Assembly: GCA_946413265.1 (NCBI GenBank)
Contig: CAMKJU010000001.1
Span: forward strand, 51,592 to 115,591
Direction: 5' to 3'
Source of the DNA: an uncultured Lentisphaerota bacterium
GTDB taxonomy: Bacteria > Verrucomicrobiota > Kiritimatiellia > RFP12 > UBA1067
DNA: 64,000 nucleotides
Position numbers: made by a program. Below, piece by piece: positions 15,001 through 45,000 of the stretch (its first letter is position 1; every line of letters starts with the position of its first letter).

Positions 15001-18000
15001 TTTTTACGGTCGTCCGCATTTTTCAAGAACGCGATTTTGAACGCCGTTGAATCGGCCTACCAAGCTCCTTGCCGTCGTAGTTTTTCAAGTTCGTTCAAGC
15101 CGACCATGCTGAACGCGAAAGCCCGTCTGGGAAAGGACGAAACGCAATTTTTCAACATACCTATATATGATTTTTCATCCTCGCGTGTACGCGCGCGCGT
15201 AGTAGTATTTCTCCAAGTAAACTAGTTTACTTGGGAAATGCTACGTGTTCTCTCTCGGTTTTTATATACGCGCGCGCGAGGTTGAAAACGGTCAGCCAGC
15301 GCCTCAGTCTTCTTGCCGCACGTTGGCGACGCGCTGCACGAGCTTGTCGCGGAACACGTTCACGACGGCGAGGCCGGCGATCATCCCGGCAAGGATGAGC
15401 AGCGAGTCCGTCCGCAACTTGCCCTCCAGCAAGTCAGGCACGGCTCCGGCCACGAAGAGGATCAGGACGGCGAGCATGTACATGTTCGTGTCCCAGACGC
15501 CTTCCCTCGGTGCCAGGTAGTGCATTATGAACGGCGTGGCCAGCCCGCTGACAACATGCCCGAGCGGCACCCACATCATCCCGAACCCGACGCTTACAAT
15601 TATGGCAAGCGGTATCGGCAGTATGAAGAACACTATCCATCTGATTGCTTTCATTGCGGCTCCTTGTTGTTCATAAGAATTTGGCTCCTATCATCCCATC
15701 TTCACCATGGCCGGCGTCGCCGCCTTTATGATCTCGTCCTCCGCCGCCTCGAACGAGTAGCGGTCCGTGATGCGCAGGCCGAGCGTGTGCCCGAGAACCG
15801 CGCTTGCGGCGTCGATGCCGAAGCGGCGGCGTATCTCCGTGGCGCACGTGTGCCGCAGCTGGTTCGGGTGCCAGTGCGGCACGTCCGCGCGCTCGGCGGC
15901 GCGCGACACCGCGCGCTGGTACGCCTCGACCTTCCACCTCTCGCCCACGCTGCGCCCGACGGTCTGCCTGGGCGAGAACACGTAGCCATCGCCCTCGTAC
16001 TTCGCGAGTATGGCCTGCGCCTTCGGCCCGAACACGATCACGCGGGGCTTGTTGCGGTGCTTGTTCTTGTGGTTCCCCGGCCTGTACGCCCACACCTTCC
16101 CGCGCCTCTCCACGCAGTCCCACGCAAGCTGGCAAATCTCGTCCGGCCTCGCGCCGCACAGCCGGTGGACGCGCACCATGTCCGCGAGCGGTTCAGCCAG
16201 CTCCGCGCACGTCTTTTCAACGTCCGCGTCCGGCACGGCTGCGACGGCCTTCCCCTCCGCGACGTTCCCGCGTCCGCGCTTCAGCGGCGAGATCGCGGTG
16301 GCCTCCGCCTTCGCCTGCGCGGAGACGAGGCATTCGTCAAGCGCCCAGGCGAACATCCTCTTGACGAACCCGAGGTACTTGTTCACGGTGGTCCGCACGT
16401 AGCCCTGCTCGGCGAGCGCGCTGCGGTACTCGATCATGTCGGGATGCGTGATTGTCTCGACTGGACGCTTCCCGAACATCTTGCGGAACAGCCTCATGCC
16501 CCGGACGCTGTCGGCGGCCTCCTTCGACCCGCCTGAGTAGTACGTCTCCGCGTGCGCGGCCCACTTGTCGATCACGTCGTTCACGGTGAACGCGGGCGCG
16601 CCGGTCCCGGCGTCCGCCTGCCGCGTCCATCCCTCCCACAGACGCCACGCCGCGCTTTCGGCGAGCGACCTTGTGCTTGCACTTGCTGGGATTCTCTCGC
16701 CGGTGTACGGCATCCTCAGAACGTAGTCCTTCCTTGCCTTCTCGCCCGGGCTTGCCACGCGCCAGTGCCACGCGCCGTGGGATTCCCACAGCGTGCCGGG
16801 CAGGGCGGCCCGTCTTCTCGTGTCAGCGTTTTTGTCAGCACCTGTCATTTCATGTGTCTCCGTTTCATGCCCTAAGTGCGTTTCGCCCAATGTTTGCAAG
16901 GGTTTTCATTGGAGCCGGCAGAGGGATTCGAACCCCCGACCAGCGGTTTACAAAACATGCCATGGACGTGAAACTTGAAACACGTTGAACACGTGGAGCA
17001 AAATCTCGCGTTATATGAACACTTCGCACACATAGAGCACGGTTTGTCAGCACCCGTGTCAGCACGCGCCAACTACTAGGGGCTGTTCGCAGGGCATTGT
17101 ACCACGCCGGAAAACCTACCGAAAAAACTTTTTTAACTTTTTTTCGGTAGGTGCTTGCATCTGCCAAGAGTTTGTGGTATCATGTTCGGCGTCACGGCAA
17201 AACAGGAGAGTTTCAAATGGCTTCAAACAGAGACACCAACAAAAGGCTCAAGGGCATAGGACTGCCAATCGAGCTTTGCGTCAAGTACGAGAGGTTGTGC
17301 GGCATCCCGCCGGGAAGGAAACCGTCCTTCACCGAGAAGTTCCGCGTCTCGGAGGCGATGATTTCGGCGCTGGAGGCTGGCGTAAGGAACGTCCAGCTCA
17401 CGTCGGAAGACTACGAACAAATAGCCAAAGAGGTAAAGAGAAATGAGAACAGCCGCAAAGGTAGGGGGAACGCCGATGTCGAAGGCTAGCCCCATTTGCT
17501 TCAGGTACAGGGGGCGCGTCCTGGCTTTGAGCCCGGAGACATCGCTCAAGATCAGAAAGATCGCCGAGGACGGCGGGAAGAGCGTGGACAGCGTTCTTTC
17601 CACCCTTCTCGAAAAGGCGCAATGCGTCGGCAACGGTCTTTTTTTGCCTGCTAGGTGCTAGCACTTGTTAGCGAGGAAGGAGAAAGATGAAGGATAAAGC
17701 AAAAACGGCAGGGAAACGCGGCGCGGGCGGCGCGGCGGCGGCGCGGGCCGAGGGCGGCGCGAACAAGGTGTTCGTGGGCTTCTGGACCACGCCGACCATG
17801 AAGGCCGCGATCAACACCCGCGCGAAGATCGACCGCAAGAGCGCGTCCGCGCTCATTGACGAGATCATCACGGACTGGCTGTGCGGGAGGAGGCGCAAGT
17901 GACGTGCCAATACTACACCGACCGCGAGCTGGCCGAGCTTCTCGGCGTGAGCGTGAGCCTCGTCCGAAAGATAGCGAAGAACGGCCCATCGCGTCGCGGG

Positions 18001-42000: not shown

Positions 42001-45000
42001 GCCCCGCACGCGGGATGGCCGATAGAGTGCGTCGCCTCCGGCGTGAACCCGGAGCAGGCGGGAGAGCTGCGCAGCTACCTCGCCAAAAAGGGCGTCCCCA
42101 CCGAGGTTTCGGCGGACGGGAACCCGATCTACCGCGACGCATCGCACCGCCGCAAGGCCCTGAAAGCCCGTGGCCTGCACGACAACTCGTCGTTTTTCTG
42201 ACAGACACCGTTCAAGACAGCCAAAGGAGAAAGAAAAAATGGAAAAAAATGAAGAAGGTGCTAGCACAAGCAAGCACGAATTTGATACACTATCTGCCGA
42301 GGTGCAAAAGGCCGTGGAAGAAATGCCCATAGATGCTAGCACGGAAGCCCCCGATAACAAGGGGAATCCGTCCGGCGAGGCGGCGGACACGCCGCCGCAC
42401 AAAGACGCCCCCGCCGACGACAAAGGCGACGGGGACGGCGATGCGGCTTTCACCGTCGGCGACGCCGAGATCGAGCGGGCCGTCAAGGCCGGGCTCTCCG
42501 TCGCGGACGCACGGGCCTTCACCGACAAGGGCGTGTTCGAGCGCGTATGCGCCGCGCTGGAGGCCAAGGCCACTGCGACGCCCGCAACGACTACTTCCAA
42601 GGACAACGAGGAAAAGCCGAAGGACGGCGACGGCGATACCGCTGACTTCGACATCCCTGAACTCACCGAGGACGAGGACTTCGACCCCAAGCTGGTCAAG
42701 TTAGGTGCCGTCGTTCGGAAGATGGGAGACGCGCTGAAGTCCATGCGAGAGGAGAACAATGCCCTCCGCGAGAAGTTCGGCAAGTCCGAGGAGGAGGCGC
42801 AGAAGGCCGCGAAGGAGGCCGAGAAGGCGAAGAAGCTGGAGCAGCGCAAGACGCTCCGACTCGCGCCCCCCGGCGGAGAGAGCGGCGGGAAGCGCAAGGA
42901 AAAGACGGAGGATGAAGTCCTCGCCGAGGTGGCGAGCGAAATCTCCTCCAAGTTTGGAATCTAAAAACCGAAAGGAAAGCAGACATGCTTACCGCAGACC
43001 AGATTACCGACCTGGTGAACCTCACTCAGGTCAATCTCATCAAGCGCGGCGCGTTCCTGAACCTCATGACGGACCTGACGGACTACGTCGCCGTCCGCGA
43101 GCTCTGGAAGAAGCACCAGAAGGTGTTCTCCGGCGGACTCGACTGGGAGTTCGACGCCGTGACCGACCACAACCACTCCGCCCGCTTCGTCGGCCTCTAC
43201 GAGAACGACGGCGCGACGCTCAACGACGCGACGACCAAGGGCAAGGTCGGCCCGCGCTTCGTGGACGCCAACTACGTCTTCGACGTGCGCGAGAAGATCT
43301 TCCAGCGTCCCGCCATCGAGATCGCGAACTACGTGCGGATCAAGTACCTCCGCATGATCACGTCGTTCTACGAGCTGCTGGAGCCCGCCCTCTGGGGCAA
43401 GCCCGAGGACGTCTCGGACAAGAAGACGCCCTACGGTCTAGCCTACTGGGTGACGAAGCAGTCCAACGCCGACGCGCTGACGAATCCGAACGGCGGATTC
43501 GACGGCAAGAACCCCACGGGATTCTCCGAGGGCCGCGCCGGAATCTCGTCCACCGCGTACCCGCGCTGGGCCAACTGGGGCTGCCAGTACGAGACGGTGG
43601 CGAAGGACGACCTCGTGCGCAAGATGCGCCGTGGCGTCCGCAAGACTCAGTTCCGCTCGCCCATCAGCCACGCGGAGCCTTCGCTCGGCAAGACGAGCAA
43701 CGGCATCTACACGAACGACAACGTGATTCACGTGTTCGAGGAGATCCTTGAGGCCCAGAACATGAACCTCGGCAACGACCTTGCCAGCAAGGACGGCAAG
43801 ACGCTCTTCAAGGGGCATCCGATCGTGTACGCGCCGTACCTCGACGAGGACTCGACCGACCCGGTGTACATGCTGGACTGGAAGTACCTCGCGCTCGGCG
43901 TGATGAAGGGCTGGCAGCAGCACGTCTCCTCGCCGCAGACCGTCGCGGGCAAGCACAACGTCCGCGCCGTGTTCCTCGACGCCGGCGTGAACATGATCTG
44001 CACGAACCTGCGCAAGCAGGCCGTGTTCCACAAGGCACTCAGCTAACCGAAAGGAAGTGAAGAAATGGACAGAAGCGTAAATGCTCCGGCCGTCTCCCCC
44101 GACCTCATCACCAAGGCCGTGTACTACGCGGGCTCCGACGAGGTGAAGGAGGGCGAGCCTTTCGTGTACGACACCGGCCACGGCACGGCTGGCAACTACG
44201 ACGGCTACCGCCACAACAAGGTGGTCCGCCCGACCGCGAGCGGCCAGACCTTCGCGGGCGTCGCGACGCGCAACTACCCCGCAGCCGACCCCGGCAACGG
44301 GCGTCTCATCGAGATCGCCCTTCCCGGCTCGCGCGGCGTGCGCATCCGCATGAACGCCGCTATCGACCAGGGCGACCGTGCGCTGTTCTGCTACAAGGCG
44401 GACGTTGGCTCGAAGCTCTGGAAGGAGACCGCCACGGCGGTTTCGTCCGGCGTGATCGGCATGGCGGTCATCCGCCAGACCATCGGCGGAGCCGGACTCG
44501 CGCAGGCAGACCTGCTTGAAGCGGCATACGGCGCGGGACAGTCCGAGTCGTAAGCCTCGCGCCCAGCCGCCGCCTTTCACTCCCCTGTTTGACGGCGGCT
44601 GGGCAAACACCCCACACGCGAAGGAGATTTGCCGCATGGACGAGCTTGTACAGGAAAAGCTGAAGGCGATGGGCTACAAGGAGATTCCGAAGGAGCTTGC
44701 CGCAATCGTCAACGAGTGGAAACGCCGCCAGGACGCCGTGCGCCCCGCGCCGCTCTCGCTCGACGCCATCGTGTGCAGCACGATGCTCTACGACATGTTC
44801 AAGAAGAAGTCCGCCGGTGGCAAACCGCCGGATGAAAAGCCCCCGGAGGGCAAGTAGCATGTTCTTCAGGAGCGGAACGCTGACGCTTGAAGCCGGGATC
44901 CTCGAAAAGGAGGTTTCCGGCCTCGCGCTGCCTTTCGTCCCCTCGCAGGTGACGTGCGCACTTCGTCTGCCGGACGCGGACTCGCCCTACGTCACGTGCG

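What the first reader, a model, noticed from the sequence alone, without database searches (positions are those of the whole stretch)
17151..42342. Genome-wide operator-like palindrome GTGCTAGCAC (consensus RTGYTAKCAY)
Seen: perfect copies at 17655, 32690 and 42258; variants GTGTTAGCAC (32951, beside the AAA promoter), GTGCTATCAT twice (33686 and 33696, inside the terS promoter), ATGCTAGCAC (42333) and GTGCTTGCAT (17151, over a -35). My rough estimate is about 0.05 expected copies of a given 10-mer at this GC, so three perfect copies are unlikely by chance. At 17644 and 33676 the context is parallel: TTGCCT, N4-5, box, second box 10 bp on. Inference: one phage repressor, probably an RHH protein, controls early, leftward and late promoters, with roadblock sites inside the AAA and scaffold genes.
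Basis: partly seen in the sequence, partly recalled or inferred. Interest (0 to 1): 0.65.

Follow-up and report, generated by a model that had tools for sequence, protein, structure and literature searches.

The report
Conserved phage operator palindrome TGCTAGCA
A short DNA palindrome that recurs in this prophage of a rumen bacterium is a real, evolutionarily conserved control site lying on the phage's main lytic promoters, most likely the docking site of a small phage-encoded repressor: a new example of a familiar kind of genetic switch in an unstudied phage group.

Summary
GTGCTAGCAC occurs 3 times in the window (0.02 expected). In the 4.7-Mb host genome it occurs only in this phage, a tandemly duplicated 50.9-kb prophage at tRNA-Thr.

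The core is the 8-mer TGCTAGCA, more generally TGMTAKCA. Related rumen phages keep it at the same five places while the flanks diverge (box 94% identical, flanks 60%). CTAG-free relatives carry TGATAGCA at all these places, so the sites changed together.

The sites overlap core promoter elements:
- the -35 of the early promoter P1;
- the spacer and -10 of the terS promoter;
- the same layout before the small ribbon-helix-helix (RHH)-like gene 17687;
- the -35 position of a conserved, previously unnoticed promoter-like element in the first codons of the scaffold gene.

A fifth conserved site lies inside the AAA gene with no promoter nearby. The 32951 variant is not conserved.

The boxes co-occur with a cassette of four small early genes (17217, 17443, 17687, 17899). 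Ten complete related phages lack both the boxes and the two cassette genes searched.

Best reading: the operator of a phage repressor of lytic promoters. The binder is unproven; gp17687 is the first candidate. This is a new member of a known kind.

The parts
17152..17169 (.). P1 operator. Box-like TGCTTGCA (17152-17159) overlaps the -35 hexamer TTGCAT. A second half-unit lies 10 bp further on; it is degenerate in this phage and reads TGCTA/TGATA in relatives.
   Evidence: GGTGCTTGCAY followed by nTGMTAAAAA is conserved in 9 lineages. The box centre lies at about -34.5.
17155..17183 (+). Early rightward promoter P1: TTGCAT, 17-nt spacer, TATCAT with an extended -10 (TGGTATCAT).
   Evidence: Read from the sequence. 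Conserved in all relatives. The simple scan did not report it, because the -35 matches only 3 of 6.
17217..17489 (+). gp17217, 90 aa, the first gene after P1. Highly conserved; candidate regulator.
   Evidence: Homologues occur in all box-bearing lineages, including the L144- and L145-like phages. Confident model (pLDDT 84) without a PDB match.
17443..17661 (+). gp17443, 72 aa (or 61 aa from the ATG at 17476). Arc-like RHH candidate. Its stop codon TAG lies inside box 1.
   Evidence: phmmer hit to single-chain Arc (1u9p), E 0.034, over IRKIAEDGGKSVDSVL. The L152 homologue carries a weak Pfam FitA-like_RHH hit. The strand region varies between lineages.
17655..17674 (.). Double box before gene 17687. 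Box 1 is GTGCTAGCAC (17655-17664). Weaker box 2 is TTGTTAGCGA (17665-17674), exactly 10 bp further on. A T-run and TTGCCT precede them (17637-17649).
   Evidence: Box 1 is kept in 9 lineages at 7-8 of 8 positions, against about 55% identity in the flanks. Box 2 always sits at +10. L141 has a perfect 7+7 inverted repeat, GCTATCA-CT-TGATAGC.
17687..17902 (+). gp17687, 71 aa, RHH-like small protein. First candidate for the box binder.
   Evidence: Conserved C-terminal 45 aa. The foldseek top hits are nearly all RHH DNA-binding proteins (CopA-SO, ParG, PutA, AmrZ, AvtR, Arc, CdbA), but at E 5-9. No Pfam hit.
17899..18117 (+). gp17899, 72 aa, HTH_17 (excisionase/AlpA-like). Translationally coupled to gp17687. 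Alternative binder.
   Evidence: Pfam HTH_17, E 0.0017, below the curated cut-off. Conserved in relatives.
32690..32699 (.). Intragenic box in the AAA ATPase gene (minus strand, codons G-A-S-T). It lies about +215 from the start of leftward promoter P_L and about 1 kb from the terS operator.
   Evidence: Kept in L144, L145, L150 and L151 as TGCTAGCA or TGCTATCA, with amino-acid changes (GAST, SDST, GDST). No promoter geometry on either strand, by reading the sequence.
32951..32960 (.). GTGTTAGCAC just upstream of the -35 of P_L. Probably not part of the system.
   Evidence: Absent at this place in L144, L145 and L151.
33676..33705 (+). terS (late) promoter: TTGCCT, 18-nt spacer, TATCAT with TG. 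Box 1 TGCTATCA (33687-33694) lies in the spacer. Box 2 TGCTATCA(T) (33697-33705) doubles as the extended -10.
   Evidence: Found by the promoter scan. Box 1 reads TGCTAGCA in L151, TGATAGCA (flipped) in L145 and TGCTGTCA in L144. Box 2 is always TGCTATCAT or TGCTATAAT.
42258..42291 (+). Scaffold-gene element: box GTGCTAGCAC (42258-42267), 16 nt after the core 8-mer, then the extended -10-like TGATACACT (42283-42291). Predicted internal promoter 'P_scaf' with the box at the -35 position.
   Evidence: Box-N15/16-TGnTAnAAT is kept in 8 lineages although the codons differ (EYDTI, EYDII, EYDIM, EYAKI, EYGKI, EFDTL). There are five consecutive A/T-ending codons in genes of GC3 0.73-0.78. The start codon moves, and in L145 the box lies in the 5' UTR. 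This geometry is unique in the whole 4.7-Mb genome.
42333..42342 (.). Second scaffold box, ATGCTAGCAC, 75 nt after the first. Accessory site, partly conserved.
   Evidence: Present in L144 and L150 (as TGATAGCA). L145 has one at another distance. Lost in G073 by a synonymous change. L151 has TGTTAGCA, one mismatch.

Best explanation
**What it is.** TGCTAGCA is the operator of one sequence-specific, two-fold symmetric DNA-binding protein encoded by the phage. The general form is TGMTAKCA. In this phage it is usually the 10-bp palindrome GTGCTAGCAC.

**Where the protein binds.** It binds one strong 8-10-bp box, often with a weaker second box exactly one helical turn (10 bp) away. Two layouts occur:
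- Box centred near -34.5, over the -35 element: at the early promoter P1 and at an internal promoter-like element in the first codons of the scaffold gene.
- Boxes centred near -21.5 and -11.5, over the spacer and the -10: at the terS late promoter, and in the same layout in front of gene 17687.

**What it does.** Because every promoter-proximal box overlaps a core promoter element, binding should shut off the rightward lytic promoters. The site before gene 17687 would give negative autoregulation. The lone conserved site inside the leftward AAA gene would act as a roadblock or a loop partner.

**Who binds.** The binder is most likely one of the four small proteins encoded directly downstream of P1. 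My odds:
- gp17687 (RHH-like): about 40%.
- gp17217: about 20%.
- gp17443 (Arc-like): about 10%.
- gp17899 (HTH): about 10%.
- Something else: about 20%.

**Shown and inferred.** Shown: enrichment, conservation, concerted change, position relative to promoter elements, and co-occurrence with the cassette. Inferred: that the promoters fire, that a protein binds, which protein it is, and the sign of regulation.
For: 1. **Enrichment.** 3 ten-mers against 0.02 expected, and 4 eight-mers against 0.07. There are no ten-mers in the other 4.58 Mb of the host. TGCTAGCA is depleted about 10-fold in three related host genomes relative to its reversed control.
2. **Footprint across relatives.** At four homologous places the box is about 94% identical and the 48 flanking nt about 60%. 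TGMTAKCA is enriched in the full G073 prophage and in the ~20-kb terS-to-scaffold stretches of L144, L145, L150 and L151, with p from 1e-3 to 7e-7.
3. **Concerted change.** Lineages almost free of CTAG (L145, L150, L029, L152) carry TGATAGCA/TGCTATCA at the AAA site, the terS promoter, both scaffold sites and the site before the 17687 homologue. In L145 terS box 1 is flipped. In L141 the two boxes form a perfect 7+7 inverted repeat.
4. **DNA-level constraint.** The boxes lie in different reading frames and coding states: a stop codon, GAST/GDST/SDST codons, and a 5' UTR in L145. The P1 and terS boxes lie upstream of the predicted transcription starts. No significant RNA structure was found.
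5. **Promoter geometry.** Box-N15/16-extended -10 occurs nowhere else in the 4.7-Mb genome. The leftward and moron promoters have no conserved box.
6. **Co-occurrence.** The cassette 17217-17443-17687-17899 is present in every box-bearing lineage whose early region could be read. Ten complete or near-complete related phages without boxes lack homologues of gp17217 and gp17687.
7. **RHH hints.** Fold hits of gp17687; the Arc hit of gp17443; the FitA-like_RHH mark on its L152 homologue. Tandem subsites one turn apart are the usual RHH operator layout (established knowledge of Arc, MetJ, CopG and omega).
Against:
- The RHH assignments are weak. Foldseek E-values are 5-9, there is no Pfam hit above cut-off, and the AlphaFold monomer of gp17687 is all-helical with pLDDT 64. 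The putative strand of gp17687 (KVFVGFW) is unusually hydrophobic for a DNA-reading strand.
- If the repressor gene lies in the P1 operon, it is unclear how it is expressed in the lysogen while P1 is shut. The promoter I infer before 17687 has a poor -10 (TAGCGA), and it is not conserved as a promoter in all relatives.
- The box itself resembles an extended -10 without its last T (TGnTAnnn). Some sites could therefore be RNA-polymerase/sigma contacts rather than repressor sites.
- More distant phage contigs (the L036 lineage) carry many TGCTAGCA copies inside structural genes with no promoter geometry. A simple promoter-operator model does not explain these.
Confidence: 0.6

Rival explanations
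1. The box is the site of a phage transcription activator, or a promoter element read with a phage factor, not of a repressor. At P1 and at the scaffold element it replaces a poor -35 next to a strong extended -10. This is how Mu Mor/C or lambda CII work at promoters with weak -35 elements.
For: The scaffold element has no recognisable -35 hexamer, and the box sits exactly there. The box co-occurs with the early cassette. One relative carries a Sigma70_r2 protein in its late region.
Against: At the terS promoter and before gene 17687 the boxes fill the spacer and the -10. An activator could hardly act from there. P1 and terS have usable -35 elements and strong extended -10 elements, so they look constitutive. 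The 8-10-bp site is centred at -34.5, not at the -41.5 or further upstream that is typical of activators (established knowledge).
Confidence: 0.15
2. The box is bound by a host protein (a global regulator or nucleoid protein of Kiritimatiellae) that the phage uses to sense the state of its host.
For: No phage binder has been shown. The motif occurs in phage lineages with different replication modules.
Against: The host genome has only 6 TGCTAGCA copies in 4.58 Mb. They share no context and none has the promoter geometry. The word is depleted in related hosts. Box presence tracks the phage cassette.
Confidence: 0.07
3. The word reflects restriction-modification or another DNA-marking process: an NheI-like GCTAGC or CTAG system, methylation-based control, or a repair bias. 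It would not be a transcription operator.
For: CTAG is strongly depleted in phage and host. In the L036 lineage nearly every GCTAGC is a TGCTAGCA. CTAG-free relatives have removed CTAG from the boxes.
Against: Restriction avoidance depletes a word and cannot enrich it 50-fold. No DNA methyltransferase turned up among the roughly 30 proteins scanned against Pfam, which were not the full gene set. The sites keep fixed positions relative to promoter elements, and they survive as TGATAGCA where CTAG is lost. CTAG avoidance explains the variants, not the sites.
Confidence: 0.05
4. Chance or coding coincidence: repeated Ala-Ser-Thr codons plus -10-like sequences.
For: The three coding copies in the window share the frame GCT-AGC-ACx (sequence). 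The loosest variants are not enriched.
Against: Shuffle and Markov statistics. Conservation with changing amino acids and frames. The same word is top-ranked in independent contigs.
Confidence: 0.01

Closest known systems
Phage P22 immI repressors Arc and Mnt (ribbon-helix-helix) and their operators
   Same: Small phage proteins of 50-80 aa. Short dyad-symmetric operators overlap core promoter elements, dimers bind on subsites about one helical turn apart, and the genes are negatively autoregulated. gp17443 has a weak direct sequence hit to Arc.
   Different: Arc and Mnt each control one local promoter pair. Here the same box lies at four to five places spread over 25 kb, including late promoters. 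No cI/cro-type repressor is recognisable beside it. RHH membership of the binder is unproven.
E. coli MetJ and its 8-bp palindromic 'metbox' (AGACGTCT) arrays
   Same: An 8-bp palindrome is the unit site. Tandem units are read by RHH dimers, with one strong and further weaker units.
   Different: Metboxes abut at 8-bp spacing and need a corepressor. Here the spacing is 10 bp, the system is viral, and the sequence is unrelated.
Mycobacteriophage L5 / cluster A 'stoperators'
   Same: One phage repressor has many sites scattered through the genome, some inside transcription units where they block elongation. The AAA-gene site and the many intragenic copies in the L036 lineage recall this.
   Different: Stoperators are asymmetric 13-bp sites, number 20-30 or more per genome, are orientation-dependent, lie mostly between genes, and are bound by an HTH repressor. 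Here the site is a palindrome, with only 5-7 per genome in this phage, mostly on promoters.
Phage P1 C1 repressor with dispersed operators (plus the c4 antisense RNA / ant immunity layer)
   Same: One repressor controls many separate operons through repeated operators.
   Different: P1 operators are asymmetric 17-mers and C1 is a 283-aa protein. No C1 homologue was seen.
Streptomyces phage phiC31 conserved inverted repeats (CIRs) bound by the c repressor
   Same: A short, conserved inverted repeat recurs at many places in a temperate phage genome as the repressor target.
   Different: CIRs are 17 bp and the repressor is large and unrelated.

Membership tests
Ribbon-helix-helix (Arc/MetJ/CopG) repressor-operator systems | The binder has the beta-alpha-alpha RHH fold and forms dimers. 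| tested here: inconclusive
   gp17687: the foldseek top hits are RHH proteins, but at E 5-9. The monomer model shows helix in place of the strand, and there is no Pfam hit. gp17443: Arc hit at E 0.034, and a weak FitA-like_RHH mark on a homologue.
Ribbon-helix-helix (Arc/MetJ/CopG) repressor-operator systems | The operator is made of short symmetric or repeated subsites about one helical turn apart. | tested here: met
   Box 1 and box 2 are exactly 10 bp apart before 17687, at the terS promoter and at P1, in all lineages.
Ribbon-helix-helix (Arc/MetJ/CopG) repressor-operator systems | The operator overlaps the regulator's own promoter (autoregulation). | tested here: inconclusive
   The double box lies 23 nt before the ATG of 17687, in the same layout as at the terS promoter. 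The inferred -10 is poor, however, and no transcription data were available.
Ribbon-helix-helix (Arc/MetJ/CopG) repressor-operator systems | Specific binding of the protein to the site. | not testable with these tools
   Needs EMSA, footprinting or ChIP.
Cluster A mycobacteriophage stoperators | Asymmetric site whose orientation follows the direction of transcription. | tested here: not met
   The site is a perfect palindrome. The asymmetric variants occur in both orientations.
Cluster A mycobacteriophage stoperators | Dozens of sites per genome, mostly in short intergenic gaps within operons. | tested here: not met
   There are 5-7 sites per 50.9 kb, and four of the five conserved places are on promoters. 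The L036 lineage has about one site per 1.8 kb, but inside genes.
Lambdoid CI/Cro switch (OL/OR tripartite operators) | HTH repressor (often with an S24 peptidase domain) and clusters of three 17-bp operators between divergent promoters. | tested here: not met
   No such protein was found among about 30 proteins scanned. No operator triplets are present; the sites are single or double 8-10-mers.
Restriction/modification target (NheI-like GCTAGC or CTAG) | The word is avoided in phage genomes, or methylated by a cognate enzyme encoded nearby. | tested here: not met
   The word is enriched more than 50-fold rather than avoided. No DNA methyltransferase was found. Methylation itself is not testable here.
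Chi-like recombination hotspot | Over-representation in the host chromosome, and orientation bias. | tested here: not met
   6 copies in 4.58 Mb of host DNA, and the word is a palindrome.

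The most novel reading that the evidence does not exclude
TGCTAGCA may be a family-wide 'genome mark' of a large group of phages of PVC-group bacteria (Planctomycetes-Verrucomicrobia-Chlamydiae and relatives, which include Kiritimatiellae), read by a small RHH-type protein. That protein would silence the whole prophage in two ways: by occluding promoters, and by binding many intragenic copies, a palindromic and orientation-free counterpart of mycobacteriophage stoperators. 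In the L036 lineage there is one copy per about 1.8 kb inside structural genes. Nearly every GCTAGC there is a box, and the positions are shared between phages that are only 56-60% identical in their capsid proteins. The same mark is under opposing selection from CTAG avoidance or restriction, which would drive the coordinated switch to TGATAGCA.
Probability: 0.15. Interest if true: 0.7.

Novelty: new member of a known kind. Interest (0 to 1): 0.45.

Why it matters
- **First regulatory map for this phage group.** Nothing is known about gene control in phages of Kiritimatiellae and other rumen bacteria of the PVC superphylum (Planctomycetes-Verrucomicrobia-Chlamydiae and relatives). This finding gives three lytic promoters with a shared extended -10 architecture, one operator word, and a four-gene candidate switch without any cI/cro-type repressor.
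- **A short, testable candidate list.** Four proteins and five DNA sites can be tested in E. coli with standard methods.
- **A case of coordinated operator change.** All operators of a phage changed together (TGCTAGCA to TGATAGCA) where the host lineage eliminates CTAG.
- **A promoter inside an ORF.** A promoter and its operator appear to be written into the first codons of a structural gene.
- **A practical marker.** The box, together with box-N15/16-TGnTAnAAT, identifies this phage group and its late promoters in metagenomes.

Tried and rejected
- **Loose matching.** Two mismatches on the 10-mer give no enrichment, so variants were accepted only when conserved in relatives.
- **RNA-level element.** Folds around the boxes are no better than shuffles, and Rfam finds nothing in the window. 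The P1 and terS boxes lie upstream of the predicted starts.
- **Host regulon or Chi site.** Rejected by the host counts and contexts.
- **Published phages.** No close relative in the INPHARED collection.
- **Literature.** The word appears only in cloning primers.
- **Searches that found no relatives.** gp17687 and terS in IMG/VR found nothing. The terL relatives found there lack the box.
- **A complete genome of the box-dense L036 lineage.** Only fragments of 7-15 kb exist in IMG/VR. A class-wide search of 401 genomes with its portal gave one prophage, which has no boxes.
- **Naming the binder by co-occurrence.** gp17217, gp17443, gp17687 and the HTH protein always travel together, even in the L145-like phage with a different recombination module. 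Co-occurrence therefore cannot separate them.
- **Naming the binder by co-variation.** The proteins of the TGCTATCA/TGATAGCA lineages differ at many positions, and no clean correlation emerged.
- **Structure.** The gp17217 model is confident but has no PDB match. The gp17687 monomer model is uninformative for the strand.
- **Promoter at the AAA-gene site.** Looked for on both strands; none found.

Full report
**1. Where the window lies**

The window is part of contig C1 (124,010 bp) of a 4.7-Mb draft genome. C1:17566-68547 is identical to C1:68499-119480. The contig therefore holds two head-to-tail copies of a 50,933-bp prophage, with a 49-bp att core present three times. The att core overlaps the 3' end of a tRNA-Thr(TGT) gene.

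In window coordinates the att core is 16908-16956. A tyrosine integrase gene (15691-16848, minus strand) lies to its left. Window 1-13067 repeats 50934-64000.

The closest named relative is a rumen MAG (RUG12514, handle G073). More distant capsid relatives sit in Kiritimatiellae and Verrucomicrobia genomes. Earlier notes call the host a rumen Kiritimatiellae bacterium. No published phage is close.

**2. The observation**

| Word | Observed | Expected |
|---|---|---|
| GTGCTAGCAC in the window | 3 | 0.02 (shuffles) |
| TGCTAGCA per phage unit | 4 | 0.06-0.07 (order-3 Markov) |
| TGCTAGCA, up to 1 mismatch | 18 | 7.8 +/- 2.7 |
| 10-mer, up to 2 mismatches | 28 | 26.6 |

TGCTAGCA is the most over-represented of all palindromic 8-mers. 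With two mismatches nothing is enriched, so loose variants need other support.

CTAG is strongly depleted in both phage and host, at about 0.4 per kb. Yet 4 of the 7 GCTAGC hexamers of the phage unit are TGCTAGCA.

Outside the prophage the host has no copy of the 10-mer and 6 of the 8-mer in 4.58 Mb. Those six share no context. In three related genomes the 8-mer is about ten times rarer than its reversed control.

**3. Relatives and the phylogenetic footprint**

I collected related phages in four ways:
- DNA search in the host family: G073, a single-copy prophage at the same tRNA.
- Capsid, portal and terminase searches in IMG/VR.
- Homologues of gp17687, terS and gp17217 in the protein collection, followed by their contigs.
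- Whole-genome searches.

The box is kept at five places while the flanks diverge. Anchored comparisons give about 94% identity in the 8-mer, against about 60% in 48 flanking bases.

1. **Before gene 17687.** GGTGCTAGCAC in the window, G073, L109/L153, L115, L138, L140 and L142. GGTGCTATCAC in L121 and L141. GGTGATAGCAC in L152. A weaker second unit always follows at exactly +10.
2. **P1.** GGTGCTTGCAY followed by nTGMTAAAAA, in nine lineages.
3. **The terS promoter**.
4. **The 5' end of the scaffold gene**.
5. **Inside the AAA gene**.

TGMTAKCA is significantly enriched in the full G073 prophage and in the ~20-kb terS-to-scaffold stretches of L144, L145, L150 and L151.

**4. Concerted change**

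L145, L150, L029 and L152 come from lineages with almost no CTAG (0-1 per 20 kb). In them the box reads TGATAGCA or TGCTATCA at every one of these places. The two forms are reverse complements of each other and occur in either orientation. For example, terS box 1 is flipped in L145.

In L141 the two units before the 17687 homologue form a perfect 7+7 inverted repeat, GCTATCA-CT-TGATAGC. A change in one unit is mirrored in the other.

The boxes are not held by protein coding:
- The site before 17687 contains the stop codon of the upstream gene.
- The AAA site codes G-A-S-T, S-D-S-T or G-D-S-T.
- The scaffold site is at codons 7-10 in the window and codons 12-15 in G073, and lies in the 5' UTR in L145. 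It keeps its distance to the next conserved element throughout.

This pattern fits one two-fold symmetric DNA-binding protein whose sites evolve together. I take the trigger to be selection against CTAG.

**5. Position relative to promoters**

The phage's recognisable promoters all have an extended -10 (TGnTAnnnT). The boxes relate to them in two fixed ways.

*Layout A: box over the -35.*
- P1: TGCTTGCA at 17152-17159, and TATCAT at 17178-17183.
- Scaffold element: TGCTAGCA at 42259-42266, then 16 nt, then TGATACACT at 42283-42291.

In both, the box centre is near -34.5.

The scaffold element had not been noticed before. Eight lineages keep box-N15/16-TGnTAnAAT, although the encoded peptide changes (EYDTI, EYDII, EYDIM, EYAKI, EYGKI, EFDTL). 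It uses five consecutive A/T-ending codons in genes whose GC3 is 0.73-0.78. In the whole 4.7-Mb genome this geometry occurs only here. An invariant Met codon (42324) follows the predicted start and could open a shorter scaffold protein; this is inference.

*Layout B: boxes over the spacer and the -10.*
- terS promoter: TTGCCT, an 18-nt spacer and TATCAT, with boxes at 33687 and 33697 (centres about -21.5 and -11.5). Box 2 is at once a box and the -10. In L151 box 1 is the perfect TGCTAGCA.
- Before 17687: TTGCCT, then 6 nt, box 1 and box 2, in the same arrangement. The -10 is poor (TAGCGA), however, and it is promoter-like in only some relatives.

*Sites and promoters outside these layouts.*
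- The promoters of the leftward or accessory genes (14096, 14964, 17104, P_L at 32946-32917, 33430) have no conserved box.
- The GTGTTAGCAC beside P_L is unique to this phage.
- The AAA-gene site has no promoter on either strand. It lies about +215 to +240 from the P_L start and 0.9-1.1 kb from the terS operator in all lineages.

**6. Who binds**

Downstream of P1 lie four small genes:
- **gp17217 (90 aa).** Very conserved. The model is confident, with no structural match.
- **gp17443 (72 aa).** Arc-like: phmmer hit to single-chain Arc at E 0.034, and a weak FitA-like_RHH mark on the L152 homologue.
- **gp17687 (71 aa).** The conserved C-terminal 45 residues fit helix-loop-helix. Foldseek's best hits are almost all RHH DNA-binding proteins, but at E 5-9.
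- **gp17899 (72 aa).** HTH_17, below the Pfam cut-off.

All four are present in every box-bearing lineage whose early region I could read. This includes the L145-like phage L152, which has a different recombination module.

Ten complete or nearly complete phages have related capsid or terminase genes but no boxes. They have no homologue of gp17217 or gp17687. The boxes therefore travel with this cassette, which points to a phage-encoded binder.

I could not separate the four proteins. I favour gp17687 for three reasons:
- The best box sits directly in front of it.
- Its DNA-binding-like domain is nearly invariant, as is the box.
- RHH regulators typically autoregulate from tandem subsites one turn apart.

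Its unusually hydrophobic putative strand counts against it.

**7. Mechanism proposed**

A small phage protein binds as a dimer, or as a pair of dimers, to TGMTAKCA units.
- It blocks sigma contacts at P1, the terS promoter and the scaffold element.
- It limits its own synthesis at the site before 17687.
- It acts as a roadblock or loop anchor in the AAA gene.

All promoter-proximal boxes overlap core elements of promoters that otherwise look constitutive. I therefore read the protein as a repressor of lytic functions (confidence about 0.6). An activator reading is the main rival (0.15).

Open problems:
- How the repressor is made in the lysogen if its gene is in the P1 operon.
- How the system relates to the c4-like RNA locus noted earlier (not tested).
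- How early and late genes are timed if one protein shuts both.

**8. An extension I cannot explain**

In more distant environmental contigs TGCTAGCA is again the top palindromic 8-mer. These contigs have capsid or portal proteins 50-60% identical to the window's.

| Contig | Copies | Length |
|---|---|---|
| L036 | 8 | 14.5 kb (p 1e-11) |
| L079 | 4 | 7 kb |
| L136 | 4 | 11 kb |
| L132 | 3 | 11.6 kb |
| L131 | 2 | 11.1 kb |
| L045 | 2 | 4.6 kb |

In these contigs:
- Nearly every GCTAGC is a box.
- The copies lie inside structural genes, mostly in the frame nTG-CTA-GCA.
- They have no flanking consensus and no promoter geometry.
- Some sit at homologous positions in different phages.

Only fragments of these genomes are available, so I could not see whether they carry the cassette. 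This may be a stoperator-like use of the same word.

**9. Comparison with known systems, and verdict**

The system works like the dispersed-operator repressors of temperate phages: P1 C1, phiC31 CIRs and L5 stoperators. In site architecture it resembles RHH regulators such as Arc/Mnt and MetJ. It fails the defining features of stoperators (asymmetry, orientation, number) and of lambdoid switches. Membership of the RHH class is plausible but not established. I found no description of the word as an operator.

I rate it a new member of a known kind, with three notable details:
- an operator-controlled promoter written into the first codons of the scaffold gene;
- the coordinated switch to a CTAG-free box;
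- the box-dense distant lineage.

Noticed in passing
window 1-13067 = 50934-64000; att core 16908-16956: The contig carries two exact head-to-tail copies of a 50,933-bp prophage, with three copies of a 49-bp att core that overlaps the 3' end of tRNA-Thr(TGT). This is either a tandem double lysogen or an assembly of the integrated and circular forms.
   Followed up: partly
window 17045-17053 and 17057-17065: Two direct repeats of TGTCAGCAC, 12 bp apart, lie between attP and P1. All relatives keep them, even those with a different att site. They are probably integrase arm-type or Xis sites. Their right half (AGCAC) resembles the box.
   Followed up: partly
window 17116-17150: A 12-bp inverted repeat, CTACCGAAAAAA(N11)TTTTTTCGGTAG, lies between P1 and a leftward extended -10 promoter. 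Its fold z-score is -4.7, and it is conserved in relatives. It could be a second operator or a bidirectional terminator of the switch region.
   Followed up: partly
window 17104-17096 (minus strand): A leftward extended -10 promoter (TGGTACAAT) points across attP towards the integrase gene. It could drive int only from the circular or tandem form.
   Followed up: no
window 17161-17173 vs G073:C3 11790-11802: In a region otherwise about 99% identical to G073, the P1 spacer carries three substitutions within 13 nt (CTGCCAAGAG against ATGCTAGGAG). They remove the TGCTA half-unit that almost all relatives have. This may be an operator variant affecting immunity or repression.
   Followed up: no
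window 33540-33660: A G/C-rich block (GCCACGCCCCCCGCCCGTTTCGCGTTGGGTCCCCCTATGCTACCCCCC...), followed by an A/T-rich tract, lies just upstream of the terS promoter. It is conserved in L144, L145 and G073. It is a candidate packaging (cos/pac) or terminase recognition region; related IMG/VR genomes have direct terminal repeats.
   Followed up: no
window 42324 (ATG) in the scaffold gene: An invariant internal Met codon (VEEMP) lies about 26 nt after the start predicted for the internal promoter-like element. The roughly 28 residues before it are poorly conserved and vary in length. A shorter scaffold isoform may exist.
   Followed up: partly
L036 (2228, 4397, 5157, 6611, 8838, 9747, 12945, 14114), L079, L131, L132, L136, L045: Distant environmental phage fragments carry TGCTAGCA at up to one copy per 1.8 kb inside structural genes. 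Almost every GCTAGC there is such a box. No promoter geometry was found, and the function is unexplained.
   Followed up: partly
L144 16707-18035: A close relative encodes a 442-aa protein with a Sigma70_r2 domain between the lysis-position genes and the portal gene. I did not recognise an equivalent in the window.
   Followed up: no
window 19369-19767 and relatives L116-L121: The gene after the AAA_24 (Sak4-like) gene carries a Pfam Tad2-like hit in relatives.
   Followed up: no
window 29938-32758: The AAA ATPase / DUF7192 leftward block is missing from the otherwise collinear G073 prophage. It is present in L144, L145, L150 and L151, so it behaves as an exchangeable accessory module under the strong constitutive-looking promoter P_L.
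   Followed up: partly
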